Origin: Thermoflexales bacterium | GTDB lineage: Bacteria; Chloroflexota; Anaerolineae; Fen-1058 | Length of the DNA stretch: 64,000 bases | Assembly (NCBI GenBank): GCA_041740315.1 | Contig: JBGSMF010000337.1 | Coordinates: forward strand, 5,961-69,960 | Direction: 5' to 3' | Shown: positions 1,331 to 50,081 of the stretch, piece by piece | Position numbering within the stretch: position 1 is the first letter of the stretch | How the letters are laid out: every line of letters starts with the position of its first letter | Made by a program: the position numbers and the translations under genes | The notes under the pieces: generated by a model | What the model saw: the letters and a program-made list of their open reading frames with translations, nothing else | The model's database searches: none | What the model was told of the DNA's origin: nothing

Positions 1331-3319
1331 CTAAGAGTTGCGTAGCAACACCGGCAGATAAATCCTCAGAGGACTGACCAGGGTTGTGTCAGTTGAGGTC
1401 ATTTGCACGGTGGGGCTGCTTGTCGAAGTTGCCGTGATCGTCAACGTGTCGGTCACATTGTCGAGCAAGCTCGGGATAGTGAGGGTGACAATGACCATCT
1501 GGAAGTGGTCGAGCGGCAACGTGGTTGTGACATTGCTCAACTGAACCGGCCAACCGTGGGCCGAGGCTGCCTCTATCTCATAAGTATCGTCAGCGCGGCC
1601 AACATTGCGGAGCACGTGCGTGTACACCACTTGCGAGTTTGGTCGGGCGCTCGCAGTGCGTCCGGGCGCCAGTTTGAGCGCATAGTCAGGGTTCAGGCCA
1701 GCAGTGAACTTTTCGCGGGCCATCAAGGGACGCATGGCAGCCTCAATCTCTTGGGCGAAATAGTTGCGGAACTGGTTAGGAGGCAACAAATAGTTCGCCA
1801 GAGCGGCCATAATCATTCCCTGATCCAGGGTGTAAAAGTGCTCGGACAGGACATGTCCACCGACGCCATCGTTGACCTGGACAGCATCGTAAAAGCCATA
1901 GTCGTCGTTATAGGCGCCAAGGTTAGTCGCTAACTTGGCCAAATTGCTAAAGACCTCGGTTGCGGCGAACTCGAGCGCCAAGAAGGAGGCATGGGGTGTG
2001 ACGACGCCGCTGATGTAATCGGTGGGAGCAGGCAGCGGCTTGGGGTCGCGTCCCAGACAGCCGGCAAAGCCATAGTCCACCGTGGTCTGGGCCACGTTGG
2101 AGGTGTAGCCAACATCCCACATGCCGAGGGCATCTACGCCATATTCACGATAGCCGCTCGGCGGCTGGCTGGCAGGCGAAAAGCCCCAGTAACCGTATTG
2201 CGCATCTTCCAGACCGTGCTCGATTTGAGCCTGGACGTACAGCGGGTGATTGAGGCCCCAGCTATCGGGCCCCCAGTCTGCTTCCGGCACCAGCAAGTTG
2301 GGCATCAATGCCTCAAACATGCTCCCCCCCCACGAGGGAACAAGGCGCATCCCGCGGTAGATATAGTGTCCTTCATAACGTGTCATGCTGATGACGGTAG
2401 GTGTGATGATCGGCCCGGGCGTAAAGTGCGTGGCGGTATAGGTCACGTTTGTCCCATAGGGCCGCATTTCGTGCCAACTCCAGTCGCACGTGTCAGGAAA
2501 CATGCGCCAATACCTGTAAAAATGCGAGGGCGGCACCTGGCCCTTGGCAATGCCAATGTAACCGGCAATGCGCGGCTCAGAATTGAAAATGTCATAGTGA
2601 TGTCCGGTGTAACCCGTGGGGCAACTTGGCGGTTGTGCGTCAGGCGGCCAGTAGCCGCCGTACATCAGGCCTACGTTAGCATCATAAAAAAGACCAAAGT
2701 CCATCGAGTTGACCAGTGTCTGCGCCGCGCTCACAATGTCGGTCTCGGTCAAGGCGTTTGTCACCATCATGAGTGAGGCCGCCAGCCAACTGTTGTCCAC
2801 TGTGGATAGAAACGGGCAAACAGTGTTCCCATTCTCCGGCCAGATCGTCAGCAGGTCTCCCGTCTCGGGATCGTACCAGTTGTAGAACTGACCGCTTTCT
2901 ACGTGACGGGTCAGCACCTGGAGGACGCTGAGTGTGGCGGAAATGCGCAGGTTAGCGCTGATAGGCGTGATGATTCCCAGGTCGCGCGCGGCAATCGTGC
3001 TCCAGATATAGCTGCCGATGTTGGTGGGCGAAGTATATTTCGCCAAGAGTCCGTCAGTGCTAGTCATGTGGTCAGTTGGCAATAACCGGCCGGGCGGCAT
3101 CATCGCCACAAAGGAATTCCACGTGTCACGCGCGTATTCCATTGCCGTGGTAAAGTGGTCCGAAGCGCGCAGCAGCGATTGAGGCGTGGCGGTGTCTGCA
3201 TCTGGAAAAGCAAGGCGTTGGTCGGCTGCCTGCGCTTGGGCCATAGGGAAGATGACCAAGCCTGCCAACAGCAGACCAAGCAGCAGCGCGCAAGTGAGTA
3301 ACCAGATACGATTGAACAT
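1331..3319 (-). CDS. Secreted glucoamylase-like (alpha/alpha)6 glycoside hydrolase (DUF3131 / putative endo-beta-1,2-glucanase-like) with C-terminal beta-sandwich domain
   Basis: 662-aa ORF; N-terminal signal peptide (MFNRIWLLTCALLLGLLLAGLVIFPMAQA). Motifs TSPTNIGSYIWSTIAARDLG, GQFYNWYDPETG and FLSTVDNSWLA are shared with the putative-glucoamylase/cyclic-glucan-synthase glycan-binding domain family. Confidence 0.6.
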   Translation of the reverse strand: MFNRIWLLTCALLLGLLLAGLVIFPMAQAQAADQRLAFPDADTATPQSLLRASDHFTTAMEYARDTWNSFVAMMPPGRLLPTDHMTSTDGLLAKYTSPTNIGSYIWSTIAARDLGIITPISANLRISATLSVLQVLTRHVESGQFYNWYDPETGDLLTIWPENGNTVCPFLSTVDNSWLAASLMMVTNALTETDIVSAAQTLVNSMDFGLFYDANVGLMYGGYWPPDAQPPSCPTGYTGHHYDIFNSEPRIAGYIGIAKGQVPPSHFYRYWRMFPDTCDWSWHEMRPYGTNVTYTATHFTPGPIITPTVISMTRYEGHYIYRGMRLVPSWGGSMFEALMPNLLVPEADWGPDSWGLNHPLYVQAQIEHGLEDAQYGYWGFSPASQPPSGYREYGVDALGMWDVGYTSNVAQTTVDYGFAGCLGRDPKPLPAPTDYISGVVTPHASFLALEFAATEVFSNLAKLATNLGAYNDDYGFYDAVQVNDGVGGHVLSEHFYTLDQGMIMAALANYLLPPNQFRNYFAQEIEAAMRPLMAREKFTAGLNPDYALKLAPGRTASARPNSQVVYTHVLRNVGRADDTYEIEAASAHGWPVQLSNVTTTLPLDHFQMVIVTLTIPSLLDNVTDTLTITATSTSSPTVQMTSTDTTLVSPLRIYLPVLLRNS

Positions 3320-20771: not shown

Positions 20772-20829
20772 AGTGTCGCCGTTATTATAGCACTGTTACA
20801 TCATCCATGCGATTGTAACCTGAGTTAAT

Positions 20830-20932
20830 CCATAGGACGGCTCTGGCCGTAGGAATTTCCTTTTCGACCTTGCTACCGTCAACTTGTGCAAGGCTGCAGT
20901 GCAGCTAAAATCCCGGCGAAGCTGGGATAACT
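20830..20932 (+). repeat. ~95-nt structured intergenic repeat, copy A
   Basis: Aligns with 38880-38976 and 43493-43584. Conserved hairpins CGGCtctgGCCG, CCTTGC-taccgtcaactt-GCAAGG, and GCTAAAATCCCGGCgaaGCTGGGATAAC. Confidence 0.75.
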
Positions 20933-20936
20933 TGTA

Positions 20937-21018
20937 TAAGAATTCCCTTTTGGATTGCGCTAGTGTCAATTTGCGCCACGTTGATACAGCTAAAATCCCG
21001 GCGAAGCTGGGATAATCT
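20937..21018 (+). repeat. ~95-nt structured intergenic repeat, copy B (5'-truncated, tandem to A)
   Basis: agaattcccttttggattGCGCtagtgtcaatttGCGCcacgttgatacagctaaaatcccggcgaagctgggataatctg. Confidence 0.7.
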
Positions 21019-21059: not shown

Positions 21060-21088
21060 TTGACTTGCACCCAGAGACAGAGTATAAT
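21060..21088 (+). promoter_or_regulatory. Near-consensus sigma70 promoter of the DUF4388/GTPase operon
   Basis: TTGACT-17 nt-TATAAT, about 115 nt upstream of ATG 21203. Confidence 0.6.
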
Positions 21089-21202
21089 TCTTTAACTGGG
21101 AGCTAGCCTCCAGTTGTTTTGGTGCGCCTATAGTGTTATTTGGGGTCTTGCGCCATAACGTCGGGTTGGGTAAAAGATAGCATAGAGTAAAAGGCGGGGC
21201 AC

Positions 21203-29768: not shown

Positions 29769-32700
29769 ATGGCGACCAAGTCTGGTTCTAACCGACAACA
29801 CAAGACATTTCTGGGCCTCAAGCTGGGCTTGCCTTTCCTGCTGATGATTACCATCGTTGCAGCGGTGGTGGGCTTTATGATCTGGAATAGCTATCGGCTT
29901 CAGCGGCAGACGGCTATAGAGAGCCAACGCCAGGCGTCAATCCAGGCCAGTATCCAGGTGTCCAGCTATGTCAGCCAGTTCCAGTCCCAGCTGGATGATG
30001 CCGCCCGCGGCCTGACTTATGCCGGGGCCGACCCTGCCCAACAGCGCAATTTTCTCATTGCAGTGCGTGGAGTGCACAGCCATTTTTATGCCCTGGCGGT
30101 TACGGACCATTTGGGACAGGAAACAGCGCGGGTGGTGGGAACCGATCCAGAGTATCTAACCCCATTGCGCTCGCAAGGCGGCACGATTGCCGTAAACACG
30201 GCGCTCGAAGGTTCGTTTTACCTGGGGCGCGTTTATCTTGATAACGAGTTTAATGCGCCCTTTGTAGAGATGTCTGCGCCCATTCTAGATGCCAACGCGC
30301 AAGTGACGGGCACCTTGGTAGCCGAGGTTGACCTGGGAAACCTGTGGGACATTGTCAGTAAAATCCAGGTGGGGCGGAGCGGTGAGGTCTATCAGCGAGG
30401 GAAGAGTGGCTATGCCTATATTGTAGATGGCGAAGGCCGACTGATTGCCTACCGCGAGAACGAGTGGGTTGTTGGGTCGCAGGAAAAGCTGATAAAGCCT
30501 TTGCAACCTTACCTGACCTGGGTTGTGCAAAGTTATCTTAAAAAGCGGGCCGGCTATTTGGAGGATACCCAACGGGTTCTGGAAAGTTCGGTTGATGACA
30601 AGGACCAATTGCTCGGTGAAACGCCTGCTTTGATATGCTCGCTGCGCGAACCGCAGGAACTGGGCGAACGGTGCACTATTAATGTCTTGAGCTACTATCG
30701 CTCCATTCCAGGGACGGATTGGGCCGTAATTGTCGAGCAGCCAACCTCCGAGGTCTATGCCGACGTGGACACTTTGCAGTATTTGGCGCTGGGCCTGGGC
30801 GCAATTATCCTGGTCATTGTCATGGGCCTGGCCTGGTTTATTCAGCGCAACGTGTTGCGCCCCATCGGCTTGTTGGGCGAGGGAGCCTCGGCGTTGGCCA
30901 GCGGCCAGTTCTCGCGGCGCCTCAGAATCAGCACCGGCGATGAAATTGAAGCGCTGGCCGACGAGTTTAACGCCATGGCCGAAAGCCTGCAGCGCTCGCA
31001 ATCCCAATTGGAAGCCTTTGCGCTGGAAAAGAGCCAGCAAGCAGAGACGGCCCAGTCGCGCGTGCGCGAAATGACAATGCTGGTCGAATCTGGCCGGGCC
31101 ATTACCTCGCTCGACCTGGAAAACGTGCTCGACAGCCTGGCGTCTGAATCGGCCCGAGTGACCAAGGCCGACCAATGCTTGATTTATTTGAGAGACAAAC
31201 GCACCGGTGACCTGGTGGCGCGGGGGGTGTGGGGCATGGGCGAAGTAGAATATGCCGCTCCCCTCAAATGGGGCGAAAGCGCCGCCGGCTGGGTAGCCAG
31301 CGAGGGCAGAGAGTTGTTCTTGCCCAGCGTTCAATCCGACCGGCGTTTTGCGCCCAAGACTCCCACCGATCTTTTGTTGGGCAGCCTGCTGGCGCTGCCG
31401 CTGGTATCAGATGGGCAGGCGATTGGCGTTTTGCAAGTGGCAACTCGCACCGGCAAGGTCAAGCTTGCCGCCGAAGAAAAACGCCTGATCGAGCCGTTTG
31501 CGCGCCAGGCGGCGGTGGCCTATAAAAATTCGCAACTGTACGAGGAAGAGCGGCGGCGCGCGCGCGAGATGACGATTATTGCAGAAATTACGCGCACCAT
31601 CAGCGCCAGCCTCGACCCAGACAAGACGCTTGACCTCATTTTGCAATCGGTGCGCGAGTTGGTGCCTTATGACGCCGGCGAGGTCAACCTGTGGGATCCG
31701 CGCGCCAAGCTGCTCTACACACGTGGACGGGGCGGCAGCCGGGTAGAGCAGGTCTCGGCCGGTGTCTATGGGCTGGATGAGGGTTATACAGGCTGGATAG
31801 CTCGCAACCGCCAGCCTTTGCTGATTACAGATGTTCAGGCCAGAACAGAGGTTCTGCCCAAGATAGACTTGCAGCAGTTCCCGGTTCGCGCCTATGTTGG
31901 GGTGCCGCTGCTCATCGGCAATGAGTTGGTGGGCACTTTGGAGCTGTCCAGCTATCAGGCGGACGCTTTTAACGACCGGCATGTCGAGACGCTGCAAACC
32001 ATTGCCAGCCAAGCGGCCGTGACAATTCAGAACGCCCGCCTGTATGAAGAAACCCGCCGGGGCGCGGAAGAAATGGCGGCCCTGCGCGAGGCGGCGGTTG
32101 AGATCACCAGTCATCTCGAATCTGAACGCATCTTGATCGCCATTGTCCAGCGGGCCACAGCGCTGCTCAAGGGCCAAAGTGGCGCGCTGTACCGGGTGGA
32201 TGTTGACCGGCAAACCCTGACGGTGGTGGTTGGCTACAACATGCCCCGCGATGTTACCGGTTCAACCATCCGCTTTGGCGAGGGGCTGGCCGGGCGGGTG
32301 GCGCACAAACGCCAGCCGATGATTGTCAACGACTATCGCAACTGGGAAGGGCGCGCTTCTCGCTATGCCGACGATCCTTTTACGGCCGTGATTGGCGTGC
32401 CGCTGATTTGGCAAGACGAGCTGATTGGCGTGTTGGATGTTTTGGCCGATGTCGAGCAGCGCAAATTTGACGAAGACGATACTCGCCTGATTACCCTGTT
32501 TGCAGGCCAGGCCGCGGTGGCGCTGCAGAACGCTACTCTGTACGAGCAACTGATACGCCGCATGGAGGAAATGTCGGCCCTCCATGAGACGGCGGTGGAT
32601 ATTGCCAGCCAGCTTGATTCGGACCAGTTGCTAGAGACGATTGTTCGCCGGGCGGTGGATTTGCTGCACGCCAAGGGCGGCAGCCTGCACCGTTACAATC

Positions 32701-35700
32701 TTGCCGACCAGACGGCGCGCTTGATCATCAGCTACAACATGGGGCGAGACTATCGCGGCTTGGTCGTCAAAAAAGGTGAAGGGCTGGCCGGGCAGGTGTT
32801 GCAAACCGGGCAGCCGTTAATTGTCAACGATTACAAGAATTGGTCTGGCCGCTCGGCGCAGTTCGACCAAGCCAACTTTACGGCTGCCATGGGCGCTCCG
32901 CTGATCTGGCAGGATCGAATGTTAGGCATGTTGGTGGTAGTAGACGAGGCAGAGCGGCGCGTCTTTAATTTGAACGATCTGCGCTTGCTCACCTTGTTTG
33001 CCAGCCAGGCCGTGGTGGCGTTGCAAAACGCCGACCTGTTTGCCGAGGCCCAGCGCCGCCTCGTCGAGCTGGATACACTGGCCGATATTGGGCGCTTGTT
33101 TTCGTCTACGCTGGATATGGACGAGTTGATGGAGACTATCTATCGCCAATTGCAGCGCGTGATGGATGCCCCCAACTTTTACATTGCATTGTACGACCAC
33201 GACAAAAAAGAGACCAGCTTTGTCTTTGAGTTGGATGCGGGCAAGCGCGTTCCGCCCAACAAGCGGCAGGGCGTCTATGGGTTGTCGGAGCATGTGATTG
33301 CGACCCGCAACCCCCTTTTGGTGCGCGGCGATAGGGAAACCCTATTGCAGGGATTGAACATTGAATATGTTGGCCCCACCAGCCGCATTTGGATGGGCGC
33401 GCCGATGATTGCCGGGCAGCAAGTGATTGGCATGATGGCCGTGCAGCACTACCAGGATGCTTCCGTTTACGATGATCACCATCTGAGCTTGTTGGAAAGC
33501 ATTGCCAACCAGGCCGCCATTGCGCTAGAGAACGCTCGGCTGTTTGCCGAAACCGGCCGCCGCGTGACCGAGCTGGATACGCTGGCCGATATTGGGCGGG
33601 CGCTGTCGGCCACGCTAGAGGTGCATGGCCTGCTGGAAGTCATTGCCGAGCAGACAGCGCGCGTGATGTATGCCGGGAACTTGTATATTGCGCTGTATTA
33701 CCCCAAGACGGATGAGATTGAATTCGCGCTCGATACCCGCTCGGACATGCCGCGCACGGGGCGCCGGCGCAAGCTCATGCATGGAATGACCGAACAGGTC
33801 ATCCAGATACGCGCGCCGCTCTTTATGCGCGGCGATGTGTCTAAGCAGATGGCCGAACTGGGCATCGAAATGTTTGGCACGCCGGCCGCCGCCTGGATTG
33901 GAGTGCCCCTGTTGATTGGCGAGCGTGTGTTGGGGGTGCTCTCGGTGCAACACTATACTGATTCCGATGCTTATGATCAGGGGCATGTCTCGCTATTGCA
34001 ATCCATTGCCAACCAGGCGGCTATTGCGCTGGAAAATGCCCGGCTGTTTAGCGAGACTCAGCGCCGCTTGGCCGAGCTGGCTACCCTGACCGATATCGGC
34101 CAGGCCCTGTCGTCTACCTTGCAGGTTGATCAGTTGTTGCAGCTTATCTACGAGCAAACGCGGCGCGTGATGTATGCCGAAAAAATGTTTGTTGCGTTGT
34201 ACGATGCGGCCCGCCACGAGGTTGAATTTCCCTTTAGCCGAATTCCCGACGAGATTCCTCCCGGCTCGCGGCGGGCGGCTGATGTTGGCGTGACGGGGTA
34301 TATCATCCGAAATCGCAAATCTGTCTTGATGCGCTCAGACGCGGCCCTAGTGGCCGAGCAGATGGGCATCAAAGATTCGGGGCCGCCCTCTAGCTCGTGG
34401 CTGGGTGTGCCAATGCTGATAGGCGAGCGGATGTTGGGCGTGATTGCGGTGCAGCATTATACCGATCCCGATATGTACGACGAATCACACCGCGTGTTGC
34501 TAGAAACTATTGCCAGCCAGGCGGCCTTTGCCCTGGAGAACGCGCGCCTGTACCAGGTAACCGATGTGCGCTTGCAGCAGCGGGTAGATGAGCTGACCGG
34601 CTTGGCCAAGATCAGCCAGGAAATCAATGCCACCTTTGACGACAAACGCATCTTTGAGCTGGTGCTGGATGAAGCTGTGCGGGCCACCCGCGCTCAGTAT
34701 GGCACAATCCATTTGCTGGATGTTGGCACAGGCGATCTTGTCGTGGGCGCTGCCTTGGGCTACGAGCCAGAAGCGGCCGAGACGATTGCAGGCGCCCGGG
34801 CGCGCTATGGCGTGGGCATCATTGGCCGTGTGGTCGAAACCGGCAAGCCGGCCCTGGTGAACGATGTGAGCCAGGATCCCCATTACTTGCGCGTGCTGCC
34901 CGATAGCCAGTCGGAGCTGTGCGTGCCAATCAGCTATGCCGGCTCTGTGGTGGGCGCGATCAACCTGGAAAGCGCCGAGGCGGGCCACTTTACTTCCGAG
35001 CAGCTCGAGTATTTGCAAGCACTCGCTTCGCAAGCGGCCATCGCCATTGGCAATGCCCAGCGCTATGAGGAGCAAAAGCAGGCCGCTGTTTTGCTGCGCC
35101 GTCGCGCAGAGCAATTGGGCACCTTGTTCGAGATCAGCCAGGCTTTCCGCAGCGATCGGCCCCTAGAGGAAATTTTGGATGAGGTGGCGTATGCCATCCA
35201 GGAGGCGGTTGGTTTTGACATTGTGATGATTAGCGTGGTCGAAGGCGACCCGCCAACGCAGCGACGGGTGGCCGCCGCCGGCGTCCCCATCGCCGCGTTT
35301 GAGCAACTCAAGACCGTTCGCCAGCCATGGCGTTTCATCGAGGATTTATTGCGGGACGAGTTCCGAATCAGCCAGAGTTATTACGTCCCGGTGGAAAGAC
35401 GCGAGGCCCGGGCCGCGCTCGATGTGTATGACTCGTCTGGCAGCGATGCGCGCGCGCTGCGCGAACCTGGCCGCTGGCATCCGCATGACATGCTCTTTAT
35501 TCCATTGCGCGGCGCGCAGGAGCGCATCTTGGGCATGATGTCGGTTGATGCGCCCCGCGATGGCGCCGTGCCCAGCCGCGCCACCATTGAGACTTTGGAG
35601 GTGTTTGCTAACCAAGCGGCGGTCGCCATTGAAAATGCCCAGTTGTACGCCGATTTGCGGCAGCGCGTCAATGAATTGATGCTGTTCAATGAAGTCAGCC

Positions 35701-38700
35701 GCTCGATCAGCGGCAAACTAGAGATGGAGTCGCTGCTCGCCACATTGGTCGAAGCTGCCGCAGCCTTGCTGCACAGCAAGCACAGCACCATCTTTTTATT
35801 TGAAGAAGCTGAAAATGTCTTGGTGCCGCGCAAGGCCCATGGCTTTGCCCTCGAACAAATTGCCCACCTGCGCTTTGCCCCGGGCGAGGGGGTGGCGGGT
35901 TGGGTAGCAGCCGAGAAGCGTGGGGTGGTGGTGTCCGATGCGTCCAGCGATCCGCGCTTTGTGTACGATCCCACCGCTGCTGATGTACGCTCAATCGTGG
36001 CGGCTCCCTTGATGGTGGGAGAGAATGTCATCGGCGCGATTGCAGCGGATAAGGAAGAGGTGGGCGGGTTCACAGAAACGGATTTGGTTCTCCTTTCAAC
36101 CTTGGGCGATCAGGCCGCCATTGCCCTCGAAAATGCTCGCCTCTACCAAGAGACTCAGCAGCGGGTGAATGAGCTATCTTTGCTATACAAGACGGGCGAG
36201 GCGGTCTCGGCTACGCTGGAGATTGAAGGAACTCTTGACGTGGCGCTGGAGGGAGTTAGCGAGGGGCTAGACTTTGACTTTGTGGTGATCTCGCTGGTGG
36301 ATGAACGCGCGGGCGAAGTGAGGGCCGTCCGTGGCGTTGGTGTGTCAGAAGATCAGTTGCGCCAGGCCCGGCGTCGCTTGGACGACACAGATATTATGGC
36401 CGATATTATCCGCACCGGCAAAACAGAAGTGATTGAAGGCTGGGACGAGCGCTTTGACCGCGAGATGTTTGAGCGAGAAGGGCACGCCGCTTTGGTGCGG
36501 GTGTTCACCCCCCTGGTGGCGCACAACCACAATATTGGCCTGGTTGAGGCAGGCTATCGGCGCGAGCGGCGCGAGCGCGTGGCAGAACACGAAATTCGCC
36601 TGCTGCGCGCCTTGACCGACCGCATCGCGGCGGCTATCGAAAACGCCCAACTCTACAAAGAAACCCTGGATCGCACCAGAGAGTTGTCGGCCTTGCTCGA
36701 TGCCAGTTCGGCTATTGCGGCTTCACTTGAATTGACCGATGTGCTGACTGCGCTGGCAGACCACCTGACCCAGGTTGTGGGGGTTGAAGGCTGCACGCTC
36801 TCTCGGTGGGATCGCGACAAAAGAGGTGTGGTTACCCTGGTAGATCGTTCCGCCCACATGGCCGGGCCTGACGCAAGCGGCACACTCTATCGCCTGCAAG
36901 ACTATCCTCTCACGGCCCGCGTGCTCGAAGTTCGCCAGCCGGCCATTGTTTATGTGGATGACCCGCAGGCAGACCAGCGAGAGGTCGCATTTCTCAAGCA
37001 GGAAGGGTCCGAGGCGTTGCTCATGCTGCCGCTCGTCGCTCGCGACGAGGTGTTTGGCCTGATCGAGTTGTCTAGCAACGCGCCGGGCCATCGCTTCAGC
37101 GAGGCCAATATCCGCATGGCGCAGACCTTGGCCGACCAGGCCGGGGTGGCTATTTCGAACGCCGGACTATATGAAGAGATTCGCGGCTTTACCCAACAAC
37201 TGGAGCGGCGCGTGCAAGAGCGCACCGAGGATTTGCGTCAGGCGCTAGACCAGCTCACGGTGGAGCGCGACCGGGTGGAAACCCTGTTCCGCATCACCAG
37301 CGAACTGCAAGCCAGCCTCGACCTCGACCGCGTTCTCAACCGGGCGCTGACTTTGGTCAATGAGAACATACACGCCACCCGCGCCCAGGTCTTGTTGATA
37401 GACCAGCAAACCGATGCGCTGATTTGTCGCGCGGCGATTGACCCAGAGCGAACCATTCCACCCGGCGGCGCGCAGACGCTTCTCCGGCGCAACGAAGGGC
37501 TGGTAGGCTGGGCCATTCGCCGGCGCAAGTCGGCCATTGTGCCAGATGTGCATAAAGACCCCTACTGGGTGCGAGAAGAAGCTGGCCCCAGAGCCGAGGC
37601 CAGCTCGGCGCTGGTGGTGCCCTTGATGGTGGCCGACGACGTGCTGGGGACACTGTTGATGACTCACCCTGAACTGGCGCACTTTAATGAAGCGCACTTG
37701 CGGCTGGTTGAAGCCGCTGCGGCGCAGGTGGCTACGGCCATCAATAACTCGGAATTGTATCGCATGATCCGCGAATCAGCCGAGCGACTGGGACAGATGT
37801 TGCGCTCGCAGCAAGAGGAGGCTTCCAAGAGCCAGTCTATCTTGGAGGCGGTGGCCGATGGCGTGATGGTGGCCGACCGCCGTGGTCGGGTGATCTTGTT
37901 CAATGCAGCCGCCGAGCGCATTTTGAGCTTGAAGCGCGACGAGCTGGTGGGGCGTCCCACCGATGACTTGTTGGGATTGTATGGCGCGGCTGGCGGCGCT
38001 TGGGCCAACGTGTTGCGTGACTGGTCAACTTCGGCCAGGACCCGCACAGAAATGCCTTCTTTGGAGCAGCGCTTGCAGATTGAAGACCGCCACGTGCGCG
38101 TCCACGTGGCGCCGGTGATGATGGGCGATGAGTATTTGGGCACGGTCTCGGTCTTTCGTGATGTGACCAAAGAAGTGGAAGTTGATCGCGCCAAGAGCGA
38201 CTTTGTCTCCACTGTGTCACACGAACTGCGCACGCCGATGACTTCTATTAAAGGCTATGCGGATTTGCTGATGTTGGGAGCCGCCGGCGCAATGTCAGAT
38301 GACCAGCGGCACTTTTTGAACATCATTAAATCTAATGCCGACCGTTTGTCGGAGCTGGTCAGAGACCTGCTAAACATCTCGCGCATCGAGTCGGGCCGCG
38401 TCGAGTTGGATATCAAGCCGTTGCGCCTGGATGCATTGATTGACCAGGTGGTGACAAGCCTGCGTGGCAAGATGGAAGAAAAAGGTCTGTCGCTTTCGGT
38501 TGATGTGCCGCCAGATTTGCCGGCCGTCAATGGAGACAACGATCGCGTCATTCAAATTTTGACCAACCTGGTGAGCAATGCCTATCAATATACTCAGCCC
38601 GGGGGAGCAATCACCGTGGCGGCTCGAGTGGCCGGTGATATGGTGCAGACTGATGTTATTGACACCGGCGTTGGCATTGCGCCGGAGGACCAGGCCAAAG

Positions 38701-38873
38701 TATTCGATCGCTTCTTTCGCTCTGATGATGATTATGTGCAAGAATTTGCCGGCACAGGGCTGGGGCTGGCGATTGTCAAACAATTGGTGCAGATGCTTCA
38801 TGGCCAGATTTGGCTGCAAAGCGAGGTGGGTGTGGGCACTACCTTTAGCTTCACTTTGCCGATAGTAGATTGA
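29769..38873 (+). CDS. Giant sensor histidine kinase: TM-Cache-like-TM-HAMP-13xGAF-PAS-HisKA-HATPase_c
   Basis: 3034 aa. HAMP near nt 30835-31010. 13 GAF units, each ending in a (A/N)QAA(V/I)A(I/L)(E/Q)NA(R/Q)LY-type helix. PAS (SILEAVADGVMVAD...). H-box SHELRTPMTSI near nt 38218. G2 box GTGLGLAIV. Confidence 0.9.
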   Translation: MATKSGSNRQHKTFLGLKLGLPFLLMITIVAAVVGFMIWNSYRLQRQTAIESQRQASIQASIQVSSYVSQFQSQLDDAARGLTYAGADPAQQRNFLIAVRGVHSHFYALAVTDHLGQETARVVGTDPEYLTPLRSQGGTIAVNTALEGSFYLGRVYLDNEFNAPFVEMSAPILDANAQVTGTLVAEVDLGNLWDIVSKIQVGRSGEVYQRGKSGYAYIVDGEGRLIAYRENEWVVGSQEKLIKPLQPYLTWVVQSYLKKRAGYLEDTQRVLESSVDDKDQLLGETPALICSLREPQELGERCTINVLSYYRSIPGTDWAVIVEQPTSEVYADVDTLQYLALGLGAIILVIVMGLAWFIQRNVLRPIGLLGEGASALASGQFSRRLRISTGDEIEALADEFNAMAESLQRSQSQLEAFALEKSQQAETAQSRVREMTMLVESGRAITSLDLENVLDSLASESARVTKADQCLIYLRDKRTGDLVARGVWGMGEVEYAAPLKWGESAAGWVASEGRELFLPSVQSDRRFAPKTPTDLLLGSLLALPLVSDGQAIGVLQVATRTGKVKLAAEEKRLIEPFARQAAVAYKNSQLYEEERRRAREMTIIAEITRTISASLDPDKTLDLILQSVRELVPYDAGEVNLWDPRAKLLYTRGRGGSRVEQVSAGVYGLDEGYTGWIARNRQPLLITDVQARTEVLPKIDLQQFPVRAYVGVPLLIGNELVGTLELSSYQADAFNDRHVETLQTIASQAAVTIQNARLYEETRRGAEEMAALREAAVEITSHLESERILIAIVQRATALLKGQSGALYRVDVDRQTLTVVVGYNMPRDVTGSTIRFGEGLAGRVAHKRQPMIVNDYRNWEGRASRYADDPFTAVIGVPLIWQDELIGVLDVLADVEQRKFDEDDTRLITLFAGQAAVALQNATLYEQLIRRMEEMSALHETAVDIASQLDSDQLLETIVRRAVDLLHAKGGSLHRYNLADQTARLIISYNMGRDYRGLVVKKGEGLAGQVLQTGQPLIVNDYKNWSGRSAQFDQANFTAAMGAPLIWQDRMLGMLVVVDEAERRVFNLNDLRLLTLFASQAVVALQNADLFAEAQRRLVELDTLADIGRLFSSTLDMDELMETIYRQLQRVMDAPNFYIALYDHDKKETSFVFELDAGKRVPPNKRQGVYGLSEHVIATRNPLLVRGDRETLLQGLNIEYVGPTSRIWMGAPMIAGQQVIGMMAVQHYQDASVYDDHHLSLLESIANQAAIALENARLFAETGRRVTELDTLADIGRALSATLEVHGLLEVIAEQTARVMYAGNLYIALYYPKTDEIEFALDTRSDMPRTGRRRKLMHGMTEQVIQIRAPLFMRGDVSKQMAELGIEMFGTPAAAWIGVPLLIGERVLGVLSVQHYTDSDAYDQGHVSLLQSIANQAAIALENARLFSETQRRLAELATLTDIGQALSSTLQVDQLLQLIYEQTRRVMYAEKMFVALYDAARHEVEFPFSRIPDEIPPGSRRAADVGVTGYIIRNRKSVLMRSDAALVAEQMGIKDSGPPSSSWLGVPMLIGERMLGVIAVQHYTDPDMYDESHRVLLETIASQAAFALENARLYQVTDVRLQQRVDELTGLAKISQEINATFDDKRIFELVLDEAVRATRAQYGTIHLLDVGTGDLVVGAALGYEPEAAETIAGARARYGVGIIGRVVETGKPALVNDVSQDPHYLRVLPDSQSELCVPISYAGSVVGAINLESAEAGHFTSEQLEYLQALASQAAIAIGNAQRYEEQKQAAVLLRRRAEQLGTLFEISQAFRSDRPLEEILDEVAYAIQEAVGFDIVMISVVEGDPPTQRRVAAAGVPIAAFEQLKTVRQPWRFIEDLLRDEFRISQSYYVPVERREARAALDVYDSSGSDARALREPGRWHPHDMLFIPLRGAQERILGMMSVDAPRDGAVPSRATIETLEVFANQAAVAIENAQLYADLRQRVNELMLFNEVSRSISGKLEMESLLATLVEAAAALLHSKHSTIFLFEEAENVLVPRKAHGFALEQIAHLRFAPGEGVAGWVAAEKRGVVVSDASSDPRFVYDPTAADVRSIVAAPLMVGENVIGAIAADKEEVGGFTETDLVLLSTLGDQAAIALENARLYQETQQRVNELSLLYKTGEAVSATLEIEGTLDVALEGVSEGLDFDFVVISLVDERAGEVRAVRGVGVSEDQLRQARRRLDDTDIMADIIRTGKTEVIEGWDERFDREMFEREGHAALVRVFTPLVAHNHNIGLVEAGYRRERRERVAEHEIRLLRALTDRIAAAIENAQLYKETLDRTRELSALLDASSAIAASLELTDVLTALADHLTQVVGVEGCTLSRWDRDKRGVVTLVDRSAHMAGPDASGTLYRLQDYPLTARVLEVRQPAIVYVDDPQADQREVAFLKQEGSEALLMLPLVARDEVFGLIELSSNAPGHRFSEANIRMAQTLADQAGVAISNAGLYEEIRGFTQQLERRVQERTEDLRQALDQLTVERDRVETLFRITSELQASLDLDRVLNRALTLVNENIHATRAQVLLIDQQTDALICRAAIDPERTIPPGGAQTLLRRNEGLVGWAIRRRKSAIVPDVHKDPYWVREEAGPRAEASSALVVPLMVADDVLGTLLMTHPELAHFNEAHLRLVEAAAAQVATAINNSELYRMIRESAERLGQMLRSQQEEASKSQSILEAVADGVMVADRRGRVILFNAAAERILSLKRDELVGRPTDDLLGLYGAAGGAWANVLRDWSTSARTRTEMPSLEQRLQIEDRHVRVHVAPVMMGDEYLGTVSVFRDVTKEVEVDRAKSDFVSTVSHELRTPMTSIKGYADLLMLGAAGAMSDDQRHFLNIIKSNADRLSELVRDLLNISRIESGRVELDIKPLRLDALIDQVVTSLRGKMEEKGLSLSVDVPPDLPAVNGDNDRVIQILTNLVSNAYQYTQPGGAITVAARVAGDMVQTDVIDTGVGIAPEDQAKVFDRFFRSDDDYVQEFAGTGLGLAIVKQLVQMLHGQIWLQSEVGVGTTFSFTLPIVD

Positions 38874-38879
38874 TATTGT

Positions 38880-38976
38880 CCATAGGACGGCTATGGCCGC
38901 GGGAATTTTCTTTTCGGCCTTGCTACCGCCAACTTGCAGGGCCTGGGTGCGGCTAAAATCCCGAAGCCGGGATAAC
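38880..38976 (+). repeat. ~95-nt structured intergenic repeat, copy C
   Basis: Fills the kinase/anti-sigma-like-kinase intergenic gap. Hairpins keep pairing through changed bases (GGCCTTGC...GCAGGGCC; ATCCCGaagcCGGGAT). Confidence 0.75.
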
Positions 38977-39471
38977 ATGAGGGCATCTTTCGCCGGAGTA
39001 ATAGTGGAATCAAAGGTTAAAGAGACCGAAACTTTGCTGGTGCAAAGCGAAGCAGATATTTATGCGGCAATTGGTCAGGGCCGGTTGCTGGCTGGCAAGA
39101 TTGGATTTGAGCATATTGACCAGACTAGGCTAGAGACGATTATTGCCGAATTGGCGCGCAATGCGTTGATGCATGGCGGCGGCGGCACTGTCACTTTGCG
39201 ATGGATAGAGCGCAATACTTTGTCCAAGGGCAAAGTTCAGGTTGGCCTTGAGATTGTAGTTGAAGATTACGGCTCCGGCATTGCAGACTTGGCCCAGGCA
39301 CTGGCTGGTGGGCATAGCACCGTGGGGGGATTGGGCGTAGGCATTCCCTCGGTGCGCCGGCTGGCTGATGAATTTGCCATTGACAGTGCGCCAGGGCGAG
39401 GGACGCGGGTGCGCACGTGCAAATGGGTGCGCGTGTCACGCTCTTGCGAAGCTGGTGATCAATCGCGATAA
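38977..39471 (+). CDS. RsbT/RsbW-like serine protein kinase (HATPase_c_2), extra paralogue
   Basis: LLVQSEADIYAAIGQGRLLAGKIGF...ELARNALMHGGGG...DYGSGIADL...GGLGVGIPSVRRLADEF. Start uncertain: ATG 38977 abuts the repeat, while GTG 39004 has GGAG 5 nt upstream. Confidence 0.7.
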   Translation: MRASFAGVIVESKVKETETLLVQSEADIYAAIGQGRLLAGKIGFEHIDQTRLETIIAELARNALMHGGGGTVTLRWIERNTLSKGKVQVGLEIVVEDYGSGIADLAQALAGGHSTVGGLGVGIPSVRRLADEFAIDSAPGRGTRVRTCKWVRVSRSCEAGDQSR

Positions 39472-39513: not shown

Positions 39514-41601
39514 GTGATGAAGGCAAAACGTTCGAGTTCGGCAGATATATCCAGCGCCAATGTGCAGCCCGAAGGGCAGTTGGAGCGGCGCTTGGACATG
39601 CTGGAAAGCATGGCCAGTATATTTGGCGTGATGCATCGCGGGCAAGATATTTACGAGCATATTTGCCATGAGGTGGTTGACTGGTTAGGCGTAGAGATGT
39701 GCGCTGTCTTGCTCTACGATCCGGTTCGGCAAGGCCTGGCGGGCCATGTGTCGGCTATCGGCGTGAGTGACGACGATTTGCAGAGTTATTTCATACCGCT
39801 AGGCCCTAATAGCCCGGTGCGCCAGTTGTGGGAAAGTGGCGCCTCTTACAAATCAGATAACGTGCTCACCGACCCGATAGTGCATGCTTTGGGGTTAGAC
39901 GAATTTGCTCGTAAGGTGGGCGTGCGCCAGACGATGCTGGTTGGCATCAAGCTGGAAGATGATCTAATTGGAGCAATCCAGCCATCGAACAAGTGTGATG
40001 GGTCGCCGTTTACTGATAGCGACGTGCGCCTGTTGAGCATTTATGCCAGTCAGGTGGCGGTAGCTATTGCGAACCAGCGTTTGTATCAGGGCACACTGGC
40101 AGAGCGTGACAAACTGAGCCGCTTGCACCAAGTGGCCTTGGCTGTGCAGCGGGCCCCGTCGCTCATCGAAAAGCTGCGCCGAATCGCCGAGGGTATTCGC
40201 GAGACTGGTTGGCGGCGTGTGGTTATTTCATTGTGCGATGAGAACCTGGATATGACTGAAATGATTTCGGCGGGGTTATCGCCCGATGAAGAGCAGTCGT
40301 TGCGCCACAGCGCAACGTTGATGGAACATTGGCGGCGTTGGTTGAGCGGACGGCTGGAATCGGCCCGGATGGGCCAGAGTTATTTTGTGCCGTTCCAATC
40401 ACAGGGCGAAGCAGAGCGCGCCGGCGGGGGAGATGATTCTTGGGCGGAAGGAGATGTGTTATTCATTCCAGTGCGTGACCAGATGGGGCGGGTAGCTTGC
40501 ATTATCAATTTGGACGCCCCGCTGGATGGATGCCGCCCAACCTTGGAAAGTCTGCGGATGGTCGAGTTGTTTGCTCAGGAGGCAGCGGCGAATATTGAAA
40601 CGGCCCAATTGTACCAGGCATTGCAAGACCAAATCATTGTGTTGGGTGATCGCGCTCAGCGCCTGGCTTTGCTCAATCGCATCTCGGGTATGGTGGGGGC
40701 AACCCTGGATTTGCGCGCTATGCTGTCGAATGTCAGCGAGCAGGTGACCGAGGCCTTTGCGATTGATCACTGCACAGTTGTGCTGTACGATCACGATAAC
40801 CGGGTGGGCAGCTGTGTGGCCGAGTATCCTGAACGCGGCATGGCCGGTTTTTCAATGTCGCTGGCGGATAGCTTGGTCATTCAAGATTTGTATGCATCGG
40901 CGGCGCCTGTGCTGGTCAACTTGTTGACGAGCGGGGCTGTGCTGGGAGCCGAGATGCAACGCTGGCTGGGGCGATGGGGCGTGGAATCGGTCTTGTTGGT
41001 GCCTTTGATGTCGCCCGGCCGCCTGGCGGGTTGGTTTGGATTGAACTTTATCAATCGCCAGCGCATGTTCTCGGCTGACCAGGTGGAGCTATGTCAAACC
41101 ATCGCCAACCAAACCGCCGCCGCGGTTGAGAATGCCCGCCTGTTCGAACGAGTGCAGAGCGCCTTGCACGAATTAGAGGCCACCAACCGCACCCAGGCTC
41201 AATTATTGGCCACAGTGCAGGAACTCTCTACGCCGGTCGTGCCGGTGCTAGATGATATTTTGATCTTGCCATTGATTGGGTTCATTGACAGCGACCGTGC
41301 CCAACGCGTGATGGAGGGTTTGCTGGCTGGCCTCGAACAGACGCGCGCCCAGGTGGTATTGTTGGATGTGACGGGGGTGCCGGTGGTAGACAGCGGCGTG
41401 GCCGACCACCTCATGCGCGCCGCGCGCGCCGCGCAGTTATTGGGCGCGCACCTGGTGCTGGTGGGCATCCGGCCCGAAGTCGCCCAGACCATTGTGGGCC
41501 TTGGGGTGCACATGAGCGATATTGCCACGCGCAGCGATTTGCGGAGCGGGCTAGAATATGCCCTGGCCATCACCCGGCGCAAGATTGTGCCGGTGGGCTA
41601 G
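39514..41601 (+). CDS. rsbR: RsbR-like stressosome sensor: multiple GAF domains + C-terminal STAS
   Basis: 695 aa; GAF-type ...ASQVAVAIANQRLY and ...IANQTAAAVENARLF helices. C-terminal STAS LSTPVVPVLDDILILPLIGFIDSDRAQRVME...VLLDVTGVPVVDSGVADHLMRAARAAQLLGAHLVLVGIRPEVAQTIV. Confidence 0.7.
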   Translation: MMKAKRSSSADISSANVQPEGQLERRLDMLESMASIFGVMHRGQDIYEHICHEVVDWLGVEMCAVLLYDPVRQGLAGHVSAIGVSDDDLQSYFIPLGPNSPVRQLWESGASYKSDNVLTDPIVHALGLDEFARKVGVRQTMLVGIKLEDDLIGAIQPSNKCDGSPFTDSDVRLLSIYASQVAVAIANQRLYQGTLAERDKLSRLHQVALAVQRAPSLIEKLRRIAEGIRETGWRRVVISLCDENLDMTEMISAGLSPDEEQSLRHSATLMEHWRRWLSGRLESARMGQSYFVPFQSQGEAERAGGGDDSWAEGDVLFIPVRDQMGRVACIINLDAPLDGCRPTLESLRMVELFAQEAAANIETAQLYQALQDQIIVLGDRAQRLALLNRISGMVGATLDLRAMLSNVSEQVTEAFAIDHCTVVLYDHDNRVGSCVAEYPERGMAGFSMSLADSLVIQDLYASAAPVLVNLLTSGAVLGAEMQRWLGRWGVESVLLVPLMSPGRLAGWFGLNFINRQRMFSADQVELCQTIANQTAAAVENARLFERVQSALHELEATNRTQAQLLATVQELSTPVVPVLDDILILPLIGFIDSDRAQRVMEGLLAGLEQTRAQVVLLDVTGVPVVDSGVADHLMRAARAAQLLGAHLVLVGIRPEVAQTIVGLGVHMSDIATRSDLRSGLEYALAITRRKIVPVG

Positions 41602-41655
41602 CCAGGGGCGAGTTTGAAGGGGCTTGCTATCCGGAAAGATTGAGGCAGTGCAGAG

Positions 41656-42030
41656 ATGGAATTGGTGCGTATCCCGATCTTGCAAATTGAAGATTATCTG
41701 GTGGCTTCTATCCAAATGCCACTGCACGACACGCAGGCCGAGCAATTTAAGGACGATTTGTTGCAGCGTATCTACGACACCAAATCGCGCGGCCTGGTGC
41801 TAGATTTGACCGCCATTGATATAGTGGATTCGTTTATGGCGCGCATTGTGGGTGATGTGGCCGAGATGGCCGGCTTGATGGGCGCGCGCGTGGTGGTGAC
41901 CGGGCTGCAGCCGGCGGTAGCCATCACCTTGGTGGAATTGGGCGTCGAGTTGCGTAACGTGGTCACAGCGTTGAATCTTGAACGCGGCATCTTGGCGCTA
42001 CGCAAGCAAAGAGTGGCGGAGCAGGGTTAA
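41656..42030 (+). CDS. rsbS: RsbS-like STAS-domain stressosome scaffold protein
   Basis: 124 aa; full-length resemblance to B. subtilis RsbS (recalled sequence), including the phospho-Ser context DLTAIDIVDSFMARIVGDV and VVVTGLQPAVAITLVELG. Confidence 0.8.
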   Translation: MELVRIPILQIEDYLVASIQMPLHDTQAEQFKDDLLQRIYDTKSRGLVLDLTAIDIVDSFMARIVGDVAEMAGLMGARVVVTGLQPAVAITLVELGVELRNVVTALNLERGILALRKQRVAEQG

Positions 42031-42431: not shown

Positions 42432-42464
42432 ATCCAGGCCCAGCGCCAGATGTGAAATGAGCTG

Positions 42465-43034: not shown

Positions 43035-43092
43035 TTGCGCATGATGGCAGCCCCAGGCAGTTGTCATGCAATCTGTGACGAAAGAGGTGAGT

Positions 43093-43473: not shown

Positions 43474-43492
43474 TCTTGGGTTGGGTAACTTG

Positions 43493-43584
43493 TGGCTATA
43501 GCCGTAGGAATTTACTTTTTGGCCTTGCTGCCGTCAACTTGCAAGGTTGGAGCGCAGCTAAAATCCTGGTGGAGCTGGGATAAC
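43493..43584 (+). repeat. ~95-nt structured intergenic repeat, copy D
   Basis: ggctatagccgtaggaatttactttttggCCTTGCtgccgtcaacttGCAAGGttggagcgcagctaaaATCCTGGtggagCTGGGATaac. Preceded by ttgggtaacttgt, which resembles the 3' end of another copy. Confidence 0.75.
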
Positions 43585-48726: not shown

Positions 48727-48737
48727 TTGGCCTCCTT

Positions 48738-49382: not shown

Positions 49383-49392
49383 ATTCTTATCC

Positions 49393-50067: not shown

Positions 50068-50081
50068 TTTCTTCTCCTTTG

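What the first reader, a model, noticed from the sequence alone, without database searches (positions are those of the whole stretch)
20830..21018. Dispersed ~95-nt structured repeat family with base-pair-preserving changes, all copies in one orientation upstream of signalling operons
Four copies are present: A 20830-20932, B 20937-21018 (in tandem with A), C 38880-38976 and D 43493-43584. All are on the plus strand and directly upstream of plus-strand genes.

The conserved core is GGAATTTnCTTTTcGnCCTTGCtaCCGTCAACTTGCAAGG...GCTAAAATCCCGGcGAAGCTGGGATAAC.

Two hairpins keep pairing although the bases differ between copies:
- CCTTGC/GCAAGG versus GGCCTTGC/GCAGGGCC versus GCGC/GCGC.
- ATCCCGGC/GCTGGGAT versus ATCCCG/CGGGAT versus ATCCTGG/CTGGGAT.

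This argues for selection on an RNA or cruciform structure rather than plain repeat decay. There are no terminal inverted repeats or flanking duplications, so it does not look like a MITE.

At the A/B locus the copies lie upstream of a consensus promoter (21060-21088). They are therefore either independently transcribed or act at the DNA level.
Basis: partly seen in the sequence, partly recalled or inferred. Interest (0 to 1): 0.65.

Follow-up and report, generated by a model that had tools for sequence, protein, structure and literature searches.

The report
Miniature IS91-family transposon copies
The four ~85-112-nt "structured repeats" are miniature, gene-less copies of a rolling-circle (IS91-family) insertion sequence that recently landed between genes in one Chloroflexota lineage; they are not a conserved regulatory RNA of the signalling operons, so the finding is a modestly interesting mobile-DNA case.

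Summary
The four copies exist as described, all on the + strand, and are far beyond chance. They are not a known Rfam RNA.

They are not conserved regulators. Relatives with the same operons have empty sites. Near-identical strains in other metagenomes carry 0, 1 or 2 units at the A/B site, with precise joints.

Each unit starts with a CTTG-like tetranucleotide, ends in ...GGGATAA, and is followed by another CTTG-like tetranucleotide. There are no terminal inverted repeats.

In a related contig (L076) the same 5' module and a related 3' end flank a 443-aa IS91-family transposase (NF033538, 250 bits; HUH and YxxxY motifs). A unit follows that element head-to-tail.

In the metagenome that holds this organism, the transposase gene has about 6-8x the flank depth. 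The unit modules have about 8-60x.

Best explanation (confidence about 0.8): these are non-autonomous mini-IS91 elements (terIS + oriIS). Their hairpins are the subterminal palindromes of the transposon ends. Mobilisation in trans by rolling-circle transposition is inferred, not shown.

Covariation is not significant with the five copies available. The link to signalling operons is incidental.

The parts
20819..20930 (+). Unit A (112 nt). CCTG tetranucleotide 20819-22; AGTTAAT 20823-29; P1 hairpin 20837-50; AGGAATTTCCT palindrome 20851-61; P2 20868-73/20888-93; GCTAAAATCC 20904-13; P3 20910-17/20921-28; terminal AA 20929-30. The register can shift by 3 nt (TAA), giving 20816-20927.
   Evidence: Boundaries come from the empty-site joint 20815->21013 in runs X2 and X5.
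20931..21015 (+). Unit B (85 nt), head-to-tail behind A. It has no P1 and a degenerate P2 (GCGC/GCGC in a shifted register). P3 is 20995-21002/21006-13. It starts with CTTG (20931-34) and is followed by TCTG (21016-19).
   Evidence: Run X4 has exactly one unit fewer here (joint 20931->21017, skips 85).
38869..38975 (+). Unit C (107 nt), between the 3034-aa histidine kinase (stop codon 38871-73, inside the unit's first letters) and the RsbW-like gene (likely start GTG 39004). P1 38888-99; P2 38916-23/38936-43; P3 38958-63/38968-73; followed by CATG.
   Evidence: Empty site in X4 (joint 38867->39004 with 26 ancestral letters). Gaps of 11-20 nt in L109 and L110.
43489..43583 (+). Unit D (95 nt), between the response regulator (stop 43471-73) and the alpha/beta hydrolase (ATG 43628). 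CTTG 43489-92; short P1-like palindrome 43494-503; P2 43521-28/43541-48; P3 43563-70/43574-81; followed by CTTG 43584-87.
   Evidence: Site empty in X4 (joint 43477->43622, 49 letters) and in L109 (55-nt gap).
21060..21088 (+). Host promoter TTGACT-17-TATAAT of the DUF4388/MglA-like operon. This is context, not part of the element. It is conserved, spacer included, in relatives that lack units A and B.

Best explanation
The units are miniature non-autonomous derivatives of an IS91-family (HUH, two-tyrosine, rolling-circle) insertion sequence. Each keeps only the two cis-acting ends.

- Left (terIS-like) end: a CTTG/CCTG/CTCG-type tetranucleotide, then AGTTAAT, then an optional G+C-rich hairpin (P1), then the AGGAATTTCCT palindrome.
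- Right (oriIS-like) end: two subterminal hairpins (P2, P3), ending ...GGGATAA, placed directly against a CTTG-like target tetranucleotide.

Proposed mechanism: a transposase supplied in trans by full-length copies elsewhere in the genome nicks at GATAA|CTTG. One strand is displaced as far as terIS and is inserted at TAA|YNTG-like sites.

This mechanism makes no inverted repeats and no true target duplication, and the orientation is fixed by the strand that carries the target. It allows head-to-tail arrays, because every inserted unit recreates a target at its own right junction.

On this reading the hairpins are kept because the transposase recognises them in single-stranded DNA, not because of an RNA function.

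Shown:
- homology of the unit ends to the ends of a transposase-bearing element;
- presence/absence polymorphism with exact joints;
- the target motif;
- multiple copies.

Inferred:
- mobilisation in trans;
- the rolling-circle route;
- the role of each hairpin.
For: 1. Transposase in L076. A 443-aa ORF with Pfam Y2_Tnp (3.6e-30) and Zn_Tnp_IS91 (4.8e-21) also matches NCBIfam NF033538 'IS91 family transposase' at 250 bits against a cutoff of 125. It carries HLH and YxxxY motifs.

2. Shared ends. The ORF is preceded by ...TAA|GTTAAGTTAATAGGAATTTCCTTTTTGGCC, which is 24/24 identical to the unit's 5' module. It is followed by ATCCCG..CGAAGC..GATAA|CTTG and then a full unit.

3. Independent left boundary. 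A second copy of the insertion sequence (IS), in X2, has a different left flank starting at the same TAAGTTAAGTTAAT.

4. Empty sites. X2 and X5 strains (flanks 97% identical or more) skip exactly 197 nt, which is A+B. X4 has one unit at the A site and empty C and D sites. In X2 the C site is filled. More distant relatives are empty at all three sites.

5. Right junctions. GATAA|CTTG for A and D, |TCTG for B, |CATG for C and L076. Other copies seen in X1, X4 and X5 have |CTTG, |CTCG and |CTGG. This matches the published IS91 target set CTTG/GTTC/CTCG, the absence of a target duplication, and the described architecture of an oriIS with two subterminal palindromes and a terIS with one (PMC13181058).

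6. No terminal inverted repeats.

7. Copy number in run X1, against a flank depth of 12.5-13.8: transposase gene 83-100; 5' module 540-830; P3 280-366.

8. Precedent. Miniature IS801 fragments are mobilised in vivo (PMC3189936), and a mini-IS91 of 89 + 82 bp transposes with TnpA supplied in trans (PMC13181058).
Against: - No transposase gene lies in the 64-kb window or in the relatives' loci. The physical link between IS and unit comes from one 1.7-kb contig of a related organism, plus depth data.
- The right end of the IS in L076 resembles P3 only loosely and folds poorly. The functional oriIS of that copy may in fact be the attached unit.
- Two of the four flanking tetranucleotides in the window (TCTG, CATG) lack the T at position 2 that IS91 shows.
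- The exact terminal nucleotides are ambiguous by about 3 nt. One X1 copy continues differently after ...GATAACTTGATTAA.
- The same-site pattern (X4 filled, the closer X2 and X5 empty) needs either repeated insertion at one site or precise loss.
- The orientation bias rests on only three independent loci.
Confidence: 0.8

Rival explanations
1. A structured cis-regulatory RNA or small RNA family selected upstream of signalling operons.
For: - The hairpins fold somewhat better on the + strand, through G-U pairs.
- All copies share the orientation of their flanking genes.
- C and D must be transcribed within their operons.
- One compensatory change occurs in P2.
Against: - No Rfam match, even at E <= 10.
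- Absent from the same operons in relatives, and polymorphic between near-identical strains.
- A and B lie upstream of the conserved promoter.
- Covariation is not above the shuffles.
- No RNA runs are available.
- The ends match a transposon.
Confidence: 0.04
2. The units are transposon-derived but immobile leftovers. Each site once held a full-length IS whose interior was later deleted, or the units spread only by recombination or tandem duplication rather than by transposition of the miniature form.
For: - Retrospective surveys suggest most IS801 fragments arise from rearrangements (PMC3189936).
- The L076 site shows a full-length IS next to a unit.
- Unit number at the A site varies like a tandem repeat.
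Against: - A, C, D and the L076 unit share the same internal junction (5' module joined to P2) at different loci. This points to one deletion derivative that then spread.
- The insertions are exact and lie at similar TAA|YNTG targets.
- Unit modules outnumber the transposase gene several-fold.
Confidence: 0.08
3. The units belong to another small-repeat system: a REP/BIME with a RAYT transposase, an IS200/IS605-derived palindrome element, or a classical MITE.
For: - Short, intergenic and hairpin-rich.
- Strand-biased.
- Modular, with modules at different copy numbers.
Against: - No terminal inverted repeats.
- The associated transposase is of the Y2/IS91 type, not Y1.
- The ends are identical to those of that IS.
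- The flanking tetranucleotides fit IS91 rules (PMC13181058).
Confidence: 0.03
4. In addition to being transposon-derived, some copies have been put to use by the host, for example as an operon-internal attenuator, an mRNA-stability hairpin, or a protein-binding site next to the promoter. This does not exclude the main explanation.
For: - In unit D, P1 plus the T-rich AATTTACTTTTT scores as terminator-like.
- C and D sit inside operons.
- The 5' 12-mer TAACTYGAGTTA is a near-perfect palindrome in several copies.
Against: - No promoter-like or terminator-like site in A, B or C.
- The palindrome is degenerate in C, D and B.
- Presence varies between near-identical strains.
- There are no expression data.
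Confidence: 0.1

Closest known systems
IS91 family insertion sequences (IS91, IS801, IS1294; rolling-circle HUH-Y2 transposons) and their miniature or one-ended derivatives
   Same: - No inverted repeats and no target duplication.
- The right end abuts a CTTG/GTTC/CTCG-type tetranucleotide.
- Subterminal imperfect palindromes at oriIS (two) and terIS (one).
- The transposase acts in trans.
- Short derivatives carrying only the ends can move: IS801 fragments of 229-679 nt in vivo (PMC3189936), and an engineered mini-IS91 of 89 + 82 bp (PMC13181058).
   Different: - The units here are natural, only 85-112 nt long, and amplified to tens of copies. In the cited reports miniature IS801 fragments are rare by-products.
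- The partner transposase is at most 38% identical to plasmid-borne family members.
- The host is a Chloroflexota (Anaerolineae/Thermoflexales-like) lineage.
- The target appears extended to TAA|YNTG.
- TCTG and CATG also occur as flanking tetranucleotides.
Non-autonomous Helitrons of eukaryotes
   Same: - Rolling-circle Y2 HUH logic.
- No inverted repeats or target duplications.
- A hairpin a few nucleotides before the 3' end.
- Insertion at a very short specific site.
- Gene-less copies outnumber autonomous ones.
   Different: - Helitrons are eukaryotic and use a Rep-helicase fusion protein.
- They have 5'-TC...CTRR-3' termini and an A|T target.
- They are much larger.
- No homology was tested here; the analogy rests on established knowledge.
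Classical bacterial MITEs and mosaic repeats (ERIC/IRU, Correia, BOX, REP/BIME)
   Same: - Small, non-coding and intergenic or intercistronic.
- Hairpin-forming.
- Strain-variable.
- Modular (BOX, BIME).
   Different: - Those have terminal inverted repeats and TA or other target duplications, or are single palindromes tied to RAYT.
- The units here are asymmetric, unidirectional and IS91-ended.
Chloroflexi-1 RNA motif (Rfam; Weinberg et al. 2010, PMC2864571)
   Same: A repeated structured motif reported from a Chloroflexi genome.
   Different: No cmscan match at the gathering score or at E <= 10.

Membership tests
IS91-family non-autonomous derivative | Ends homologous to those of an element that encodes an IS91-family (Y2 HUH) transposase | tested here: met
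   L076 encodes a transposase with NF033538 at 250 bits, Y2_Tnp, Zn_Tnp_IS91, and HLH plus YxxxY motifs. Its left end is 24/24 identical to the unit's 5' module. Its right end is related (ATCCCG..CGAAGC..GATAA).
IS91-family non-autonomous derivative | No terminal inverted repeats | tested here: met
   The best terminal inverted match is 6-8 of 16, no better than shuffles.
IS91-family non-autonomous derivative | No target-site duplication | tested here: inconclusive
   The empty/filled joint shows only a 3-nt ambiguity, TAA. The repeated TAA+YNTG at both ends (perfect TAACTTGT in D) fits 'terIS tetranucleotide plus target tetranucleotide', but a site-specific 7-8-nt duplication cannot be excluded.
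IS91-family non-autonomous derivative | Right (oriIS) end directly abuts a CTTG/GTTC-type target tetranucleotide | tested here: met
   CTTG for A and D, and in other copies CTTG, CTCG and CTGG (X1, X4, X5). The deviants are TCTG (B) and CATG (C, L076). The rule is taken from PMC13181058.
IS91-family non-autonomous derivative | Subterminal imperfect palindromes at oriIS (one or two) and at terIS (one) | tested here: met
   P2 and P3 precede the 3' end. P1, or the AGGAATTTCCT palindrome, follows the 5' end. These fold as ssDNA on both strands.
IS91-family non-autonomous derivative | Transposition through a single-stranded circle, dependent on TnpA supplied in trans | not testable with these tools
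   Needs a transposition assay or detection of the circle junction.
IS91-family non-autonomous derivative | Insertion polymorphism with precise boundaries | tested here: met
   Joints 20815->21013, 20931->21017, 38867->39004 and 43477->43622 in related strains.
Classical MITE | Terminal inverted repeats flanked by a target-site duplication | tested here: not met
   No inverted repeats.
Rfam structured RNA (including Chloroflexi-1) | Covariance-model match at the family's gathering score | tested here: not met
   0 matches at the gathering score over the window. At E <= 10, only chance lncRNA and HCV hits.
Conserved cis-regulatory leader or sRNA | Presence at orthologous loci of relatives, with significant covariation | tested here: not met
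   Absent at all three sites in L101, L105, L106, L109 and L110. The covariation score is reached by 56/500 shuffles.
REP/RAYT or IS200/IS605-derived palindromic element | Association with a Y1 (single-tyrosine HUH) transposase and ends that match it | tested here: not met
   The only associated transposase is of the Y2 IS91 type. No Y1 gene was seen in the window. The whole genome was not available.

The most novel reading that the evidence does not exclude
This is a naturally amplified, ~100-nt, actively trans-mobilised mini-IS91 family, a bacterial counterpart of non-autonomous Helitrons. It would define the minimal terIS + oriIS of a deep-branching IS91 clade. It inserts strand-specifically at TAA|CTTG-like sites, including inside operons, where its hairpins then become part of the mRNA.
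Probability: 0.5. Interest if true: 0.45.

Novelty: new variant of a known kind. Interest (0 to 1): 0.35.

Why it matters
IS91-family elements are studied mostly as large gene-capturing elements on proteobacterial plasmids. A recent review of prokaryotic MITEs does not mention the family at all.

A natural family of about 100 nt, in tens of copies, made only of the two ends would have three uses:
- It gives a compact natural definition of which sequences and hairpins a rolling-circle transposase needs.
- It shows that repeats without inverted repeats or target duplications, which standard MITE finders miss, can still be transposons.
- It warns that hairpin-rich, one-orientation intergenic repeats with apparent base-pair conservation can mimic structured RNAs in motif screens.

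For this genome it also corrects a gene start: the RsbW-like gene is called from inside unit C.

Tried and rejected
- **Rfam**, at gathering score and at E <= 10: nothing relevant.
- **Species-representative genomes**, scanned with the P3 pattern: 7 chance hits and no true copy.
- **Metagenome contigs**, scanned with a 5'-module...GCTAAAATCC pattern: 92 stretches, of which only L076 is real.
- **Viral contigs**: one chance hit.
- **Six-frame peptide query** built from the repeat, meant to fish spurious ORFs over other copies: no hit.
- **RNA-seq runs**: none available. A run search with the repeat alone returned only X1.
- **Outward sigma-70 promoter inside the unit** (TTGCAA...TAAAAT): the spacer is only 14-16 nt and it was not called by the scan. 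The only call is a weak minus-strand match in D.
- **Intrinsic terminator**: only D scores.
- **Xer/dif site, integron attC, or LexA-like box** as readings of the TAAC-N4-GTTA palindrome: considered from memory and dropped, because the palindrome is degenerate in most copies and the IS91 link explains the junction.
- **Ancestral hairpin at site D**: a weak resemblance in L109 was judged unconvincing.
- **5' UTR comparison of the DUF4388 operon**: the leaders diverge; not pursued.

Full report
**The observation.** Reading the three regions confirms four copies on the + strand:
- A at about 20830-20932.
- B at about 20937-21018, in tandem with A.
- C at about 38880-38976.
- D at about 43493-43584.

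An alignment shows 74-80% mean column identity, with invariant blocks GAATT..CTTTT, CAA.TTGC, GCTAAAATCC and GGGATAA. The 3' motif is found 3 times against 0.01 expected by chance. A covariance model built from the copies scores them at 76-121 bits and finds no further copy in the window. Module-by-module pattern searches also find none. Three hairpins (P1, P2, P3) fold in the copies.

**It is not a known RNA, and it is not conserved where a regulator should be.** Rfam gives no match at gathering scores and only chance hits at E <= 10, so it is not Chloroflexi-1.

Neighbouring proteins place the organism in Chloroflexota/Anaerolineae, near Thermoflexales. The window sequence is held almost completely by one hot-spring metagenome run, X1.

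The gene cluster around the copies runs as follows:
- DUF4388;
- an MglA-like GTPase;
- a GGDEF response regulator;
- a 3034-aa multi-GAF kinase;
- an RsbW/RsbR/RsbS/RsbT/phosphatase-like module;
- a response regulator;
- a hydrolase.

The cluster is syntenic in relatives. None of those relatives carries the repeat:
- The covariance model finds nothing in about 90 kb of their DNA.
- The intercistronic gaps that hold C and D are 11-55 nt in relatives, against 130-154 nt here.
- Upstream of the DUF4388 gene only the promoter TTGACTTGC...CAGAGACAGAGTATAAT is conserved. The sequence occupied by A and B is not.

The link to 'signalling operons' is therefore incidental.

**Strain-level polymorphism gives exact boundaries.** I laid assembled contigs of other metagenomes on the window.
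- *X2 and X5.* Two wetland runs, with flanks 97% identical or more, join 20815 directly to 21013. This skips 197 nt, which is A+B, and three letters (TAA) fit either side.
- *X4.* A more distant organism, about 90% identical, has exactly one unit at the A site (it skips 85 nt, 20931->21017) and lacks the 23-nt P1 module there. Its C site is empty (38867->39004, with 26 ancestral letters between). Its D site is also empty (43477->43622, 49 letters).
- *X2 at site C.* In X2 the C site is filled.

Occupancy therefore varies between close relatives as 0, 1 or 2 units.

With these joints the units are A 20819-20930, B 20931-21015, C 38869-38975 and D 43489-43583. The register is ambiguous by 3 nt. 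Each starts with a YNTG tetranucleotide (CCTG, CTTG, ATTG, CTTG). Each ends ...GGGATAA. Each is followed by CTTG, TCTG, CATG or CTTG. The empty targets read GTAA|TCTG, GTAA|CGTG and GTAA|CTTG. There are no terminal inverted repeats.

**The link to an insertion sequence.** The only true extra copy found in public metagenome contigs is L076. It sits upstream of the orthologue of the gene downstream of C.

Immediately upstream of that unit, in the same orientation, lies a 443-aa ORF:
- Pfam Y2_Tnp (3.6e-30) and Zn_Tnp_IS91 (4.8e-21).
- NCBIfam NF033538 'IS91 family transposase', 250 bits against a cutoff of 125.
- An HLH (HUH) motif and a YxxxY motif.
- At most 38% identity to plasmid-borne family members.

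Upstream of the gene is TAA|GTTAAGTTAATAGGAATTTCCTTTTTGGCC. This is identical over 24 nt to the 5' module of the adjacent unit, and it contains the AGGAATTTCCTTTT core of the window's units. Downstream of the gene is ATCCCG..CGAAGC..GATAA|CTTG, a relative of P3 plus the terminal GATAA, followed head-to-tail by the unit. An independent copy of the IS in X2 has a different left flank that begins at the same TAAGTTAAGTTAAT, which fixes the left boundary.

**Copy numbers.** In run X1 the single-copy flanks have depth 12.5-13.8. These are assembler word depths summed over collapsed contigs, so they are approximate, and other community members may contribute.

| Sequence | Depth in X1 | Approximate multiple of flank depth |
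|---|---|---|
| L076-type transposase gene (about 98% identical) | 83-100 | 6-8x |
| P1 module | about 800 | about 60x |
| GGAATTTCCTTTT | 540-600 | about 45x |
| P3 end | 280-366 | 20-28x |
| Variable P2 region | 100-130 | about 8-10x |

Contigs break at the repeat, and 34-44 contigs align to it. Other copies seen as loose ends show GATAA followed by CTTG, CTCG or CTGG. Their left sides read ...TAA|CTTG/CTCG/CTAG/CCTG AGTTAAT. A second continuation after GGAATTTCCTTTT (5 contigs in X1) suggests another variant.

**How this fits IS91 biology.** Published work on IS91, IS801 and IS1294 describes the following:
- no target duplication (PMC13181058);
- specific target tetranucleotides (CTTG, GTTC, then CTCG) adjacent to oriIS and essential for transposition (PMC13181058);
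- an oriIS with one or two imperfect subterminal palindromes, and a terIS with one palindrome next to a CTCG/GTTC cleavage site (PMC13181058);
- a transposase that acts in trans, and a mini-element of 89 + 82 bp that is sufficient for transposition (PMC13181058);
- a G+C-rich stem-loop at the left end of family members, and frequent in-vivo mobilisation of 229-679-nt IS801 fragments (PMC3189936).

The units match point by point. P2 and P3 are the two oriIS palindromes. GATAA|CTTG is the nick and target junction. The left tetranucleotide plus AGTTAAT plus P1 (G+C-rich) or AGGAATTTCCT is terIS.

Head-to-tail arrays (A/B, and IS/unit in L076) follow because each right junction recreates a target, or because termination fails.

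All units lie on the G-rich strand. GC skew is positive across the whole window. This is compatible with a strand-specific single-strand mechanism, but with only three loci it is only compatible, not shown.

**The hairpins and the 'covariation'.** On the five-copy alignment, 93% of cells pair, against 89% in shuffles (9/500 shuffles reach this). Only three pairs show double-sided changes, and two of those come from non-homologous L076 flank letters aligned into P1. The covariation score is reached by 56/500 shuffles. P3 shows only one-sided C-to-U changes.

The + strand folds a little better than the - strand, owing to G-U/G-T pairs. Only unit A is clearly more stable than shuffles (z = -2.7 as DNA). 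The hairpins are real and plausibly constrained. The constraint is better explained by transposase recognition of single-stranded ends than by an RNA function, and the data are too few to prove any constraint.

**Possible side effects on the host.**
- No sigma-70-like promoter or intrinsic terminator is predicted in A, B or C.
- D's P1 plus T-rich tract scores as terminator-like, and a weak minus-strand promoter match exists in D.
- C and D must be transcribed within their operons, so effects on mRNA processing or coupling are possible but untested.
- No RNA run holds this region.

**Rivals.**
- *A regulatory RNA.* This is contradicted by the distribution data.
- *Immobile relics of separate full-length insertions.* This is unlikely because the same internal junction recurs at different loci, and because units outnumber transposase genes.
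- *REP/RAYT, IS200/IS605 or classical MITE membership.* These fail on the transposase type and on the lack of inverted repeats.

**Remaining weaknesses.**
- The IS-unit linkage rests on one short contig of a related organism plus depth data.
- The IS right end in L076 is only loosely P3-like.
- Two flanking tetranucleotides in the window deviate from the IS91 rule.
- The exact terminal nucleotides are uncertain by a few bases.

**Verdict.** The regulatory-RNA interpretation is not supported. The element is best described as a miniature, non-autonomous IS91-family transposon, amplified to tens of copies in one Chloroflexota lineage. This is a new variant of a known kind, of moderate interest to mobile-DNA specialists, and a useful cautionary example for RNA-motif screens.

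Noticed in passing
window 21060-21088 and 21089-21202: The promoter TTGACT-17-TATAAT of the DUF4388/MglA-like operon is conserved, spacer included (..CAGAGACAGAG), in relatives with 84-89% identical protein. This hints at a regulator site overlapping the promoter. The leader has a terminator-like hairpin with a T-run (21093-21116), but the 5' UTRs of relatives diverge.
   Followed up: partly
window 38893-39471: The ORF for the RsbW-like HATPase_c protein is called from ATG 38893, inside unit C, giving 192 aa. Relatives are 148-161 aa. GTG 39004 preceded by GGAG (38995-98) is the likely true start.
   Followed up: partly
window 29769-38873: A 3034-aa dCache/HAMP/multi-GAF histidine kinase with about 504-nt internal periodicity (repeat families D1-D3, D7). 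Its orthologues vary in length from 2168 to 3005+ aa, so the number of GAF repeats is evolving.
   Followed up: no
window 39514-43473: A stressosome-like module: a GAF-STAS protein (RsbR-like), a STAS protein, an HATPase_c_2 kinase, a SpoIIE phosphatase and a response regulator. It lies directly after the giant kinase and is conserved in relatives.
   Followed up: no
window 48037-50103 (-): Three tandem paralogous ORFs of 214-236 aa with no Pfam match, next to a radical-SAM gene (46952-48040). DNA repeat family D4 links them.
   Followed up: no
L076 201-443 (-) and L076 as a whole: An 80-aa CxxC zinc-ribbon ORF overlaps the 3' end of the IS91-type transposase gene. In this organism the IS + unit replaces the giant kinase as the upstream neighbour of the RsbW-like gene, so the site may be a rearrangement breakpoint.
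   Followed up: partly
run X1 and X4 contigs aligned at window 20864: Five X1 contigs and one X4 contig share the 5' module up to GGAATTTCCTTTT and then continue differently (TCCCCAAAGAGGAAAAACGCACAAAG / TGTCCACCAAGAGCACAAAGGCGCACGAAG). These may be the interior of a P1-type full-length IS variant, or a second mini-derivative.
   Followed up: no
window 20786-20815: The left flank of unit A (ATCATCCATGCGATTG|TAA) loosely resembles the P3 + GATAA end. The left flanks of D and of the L076 unit look similar. Units may prefer to land next to relics of earlier right ends. The significance of this was not tested.
   Followed up: no
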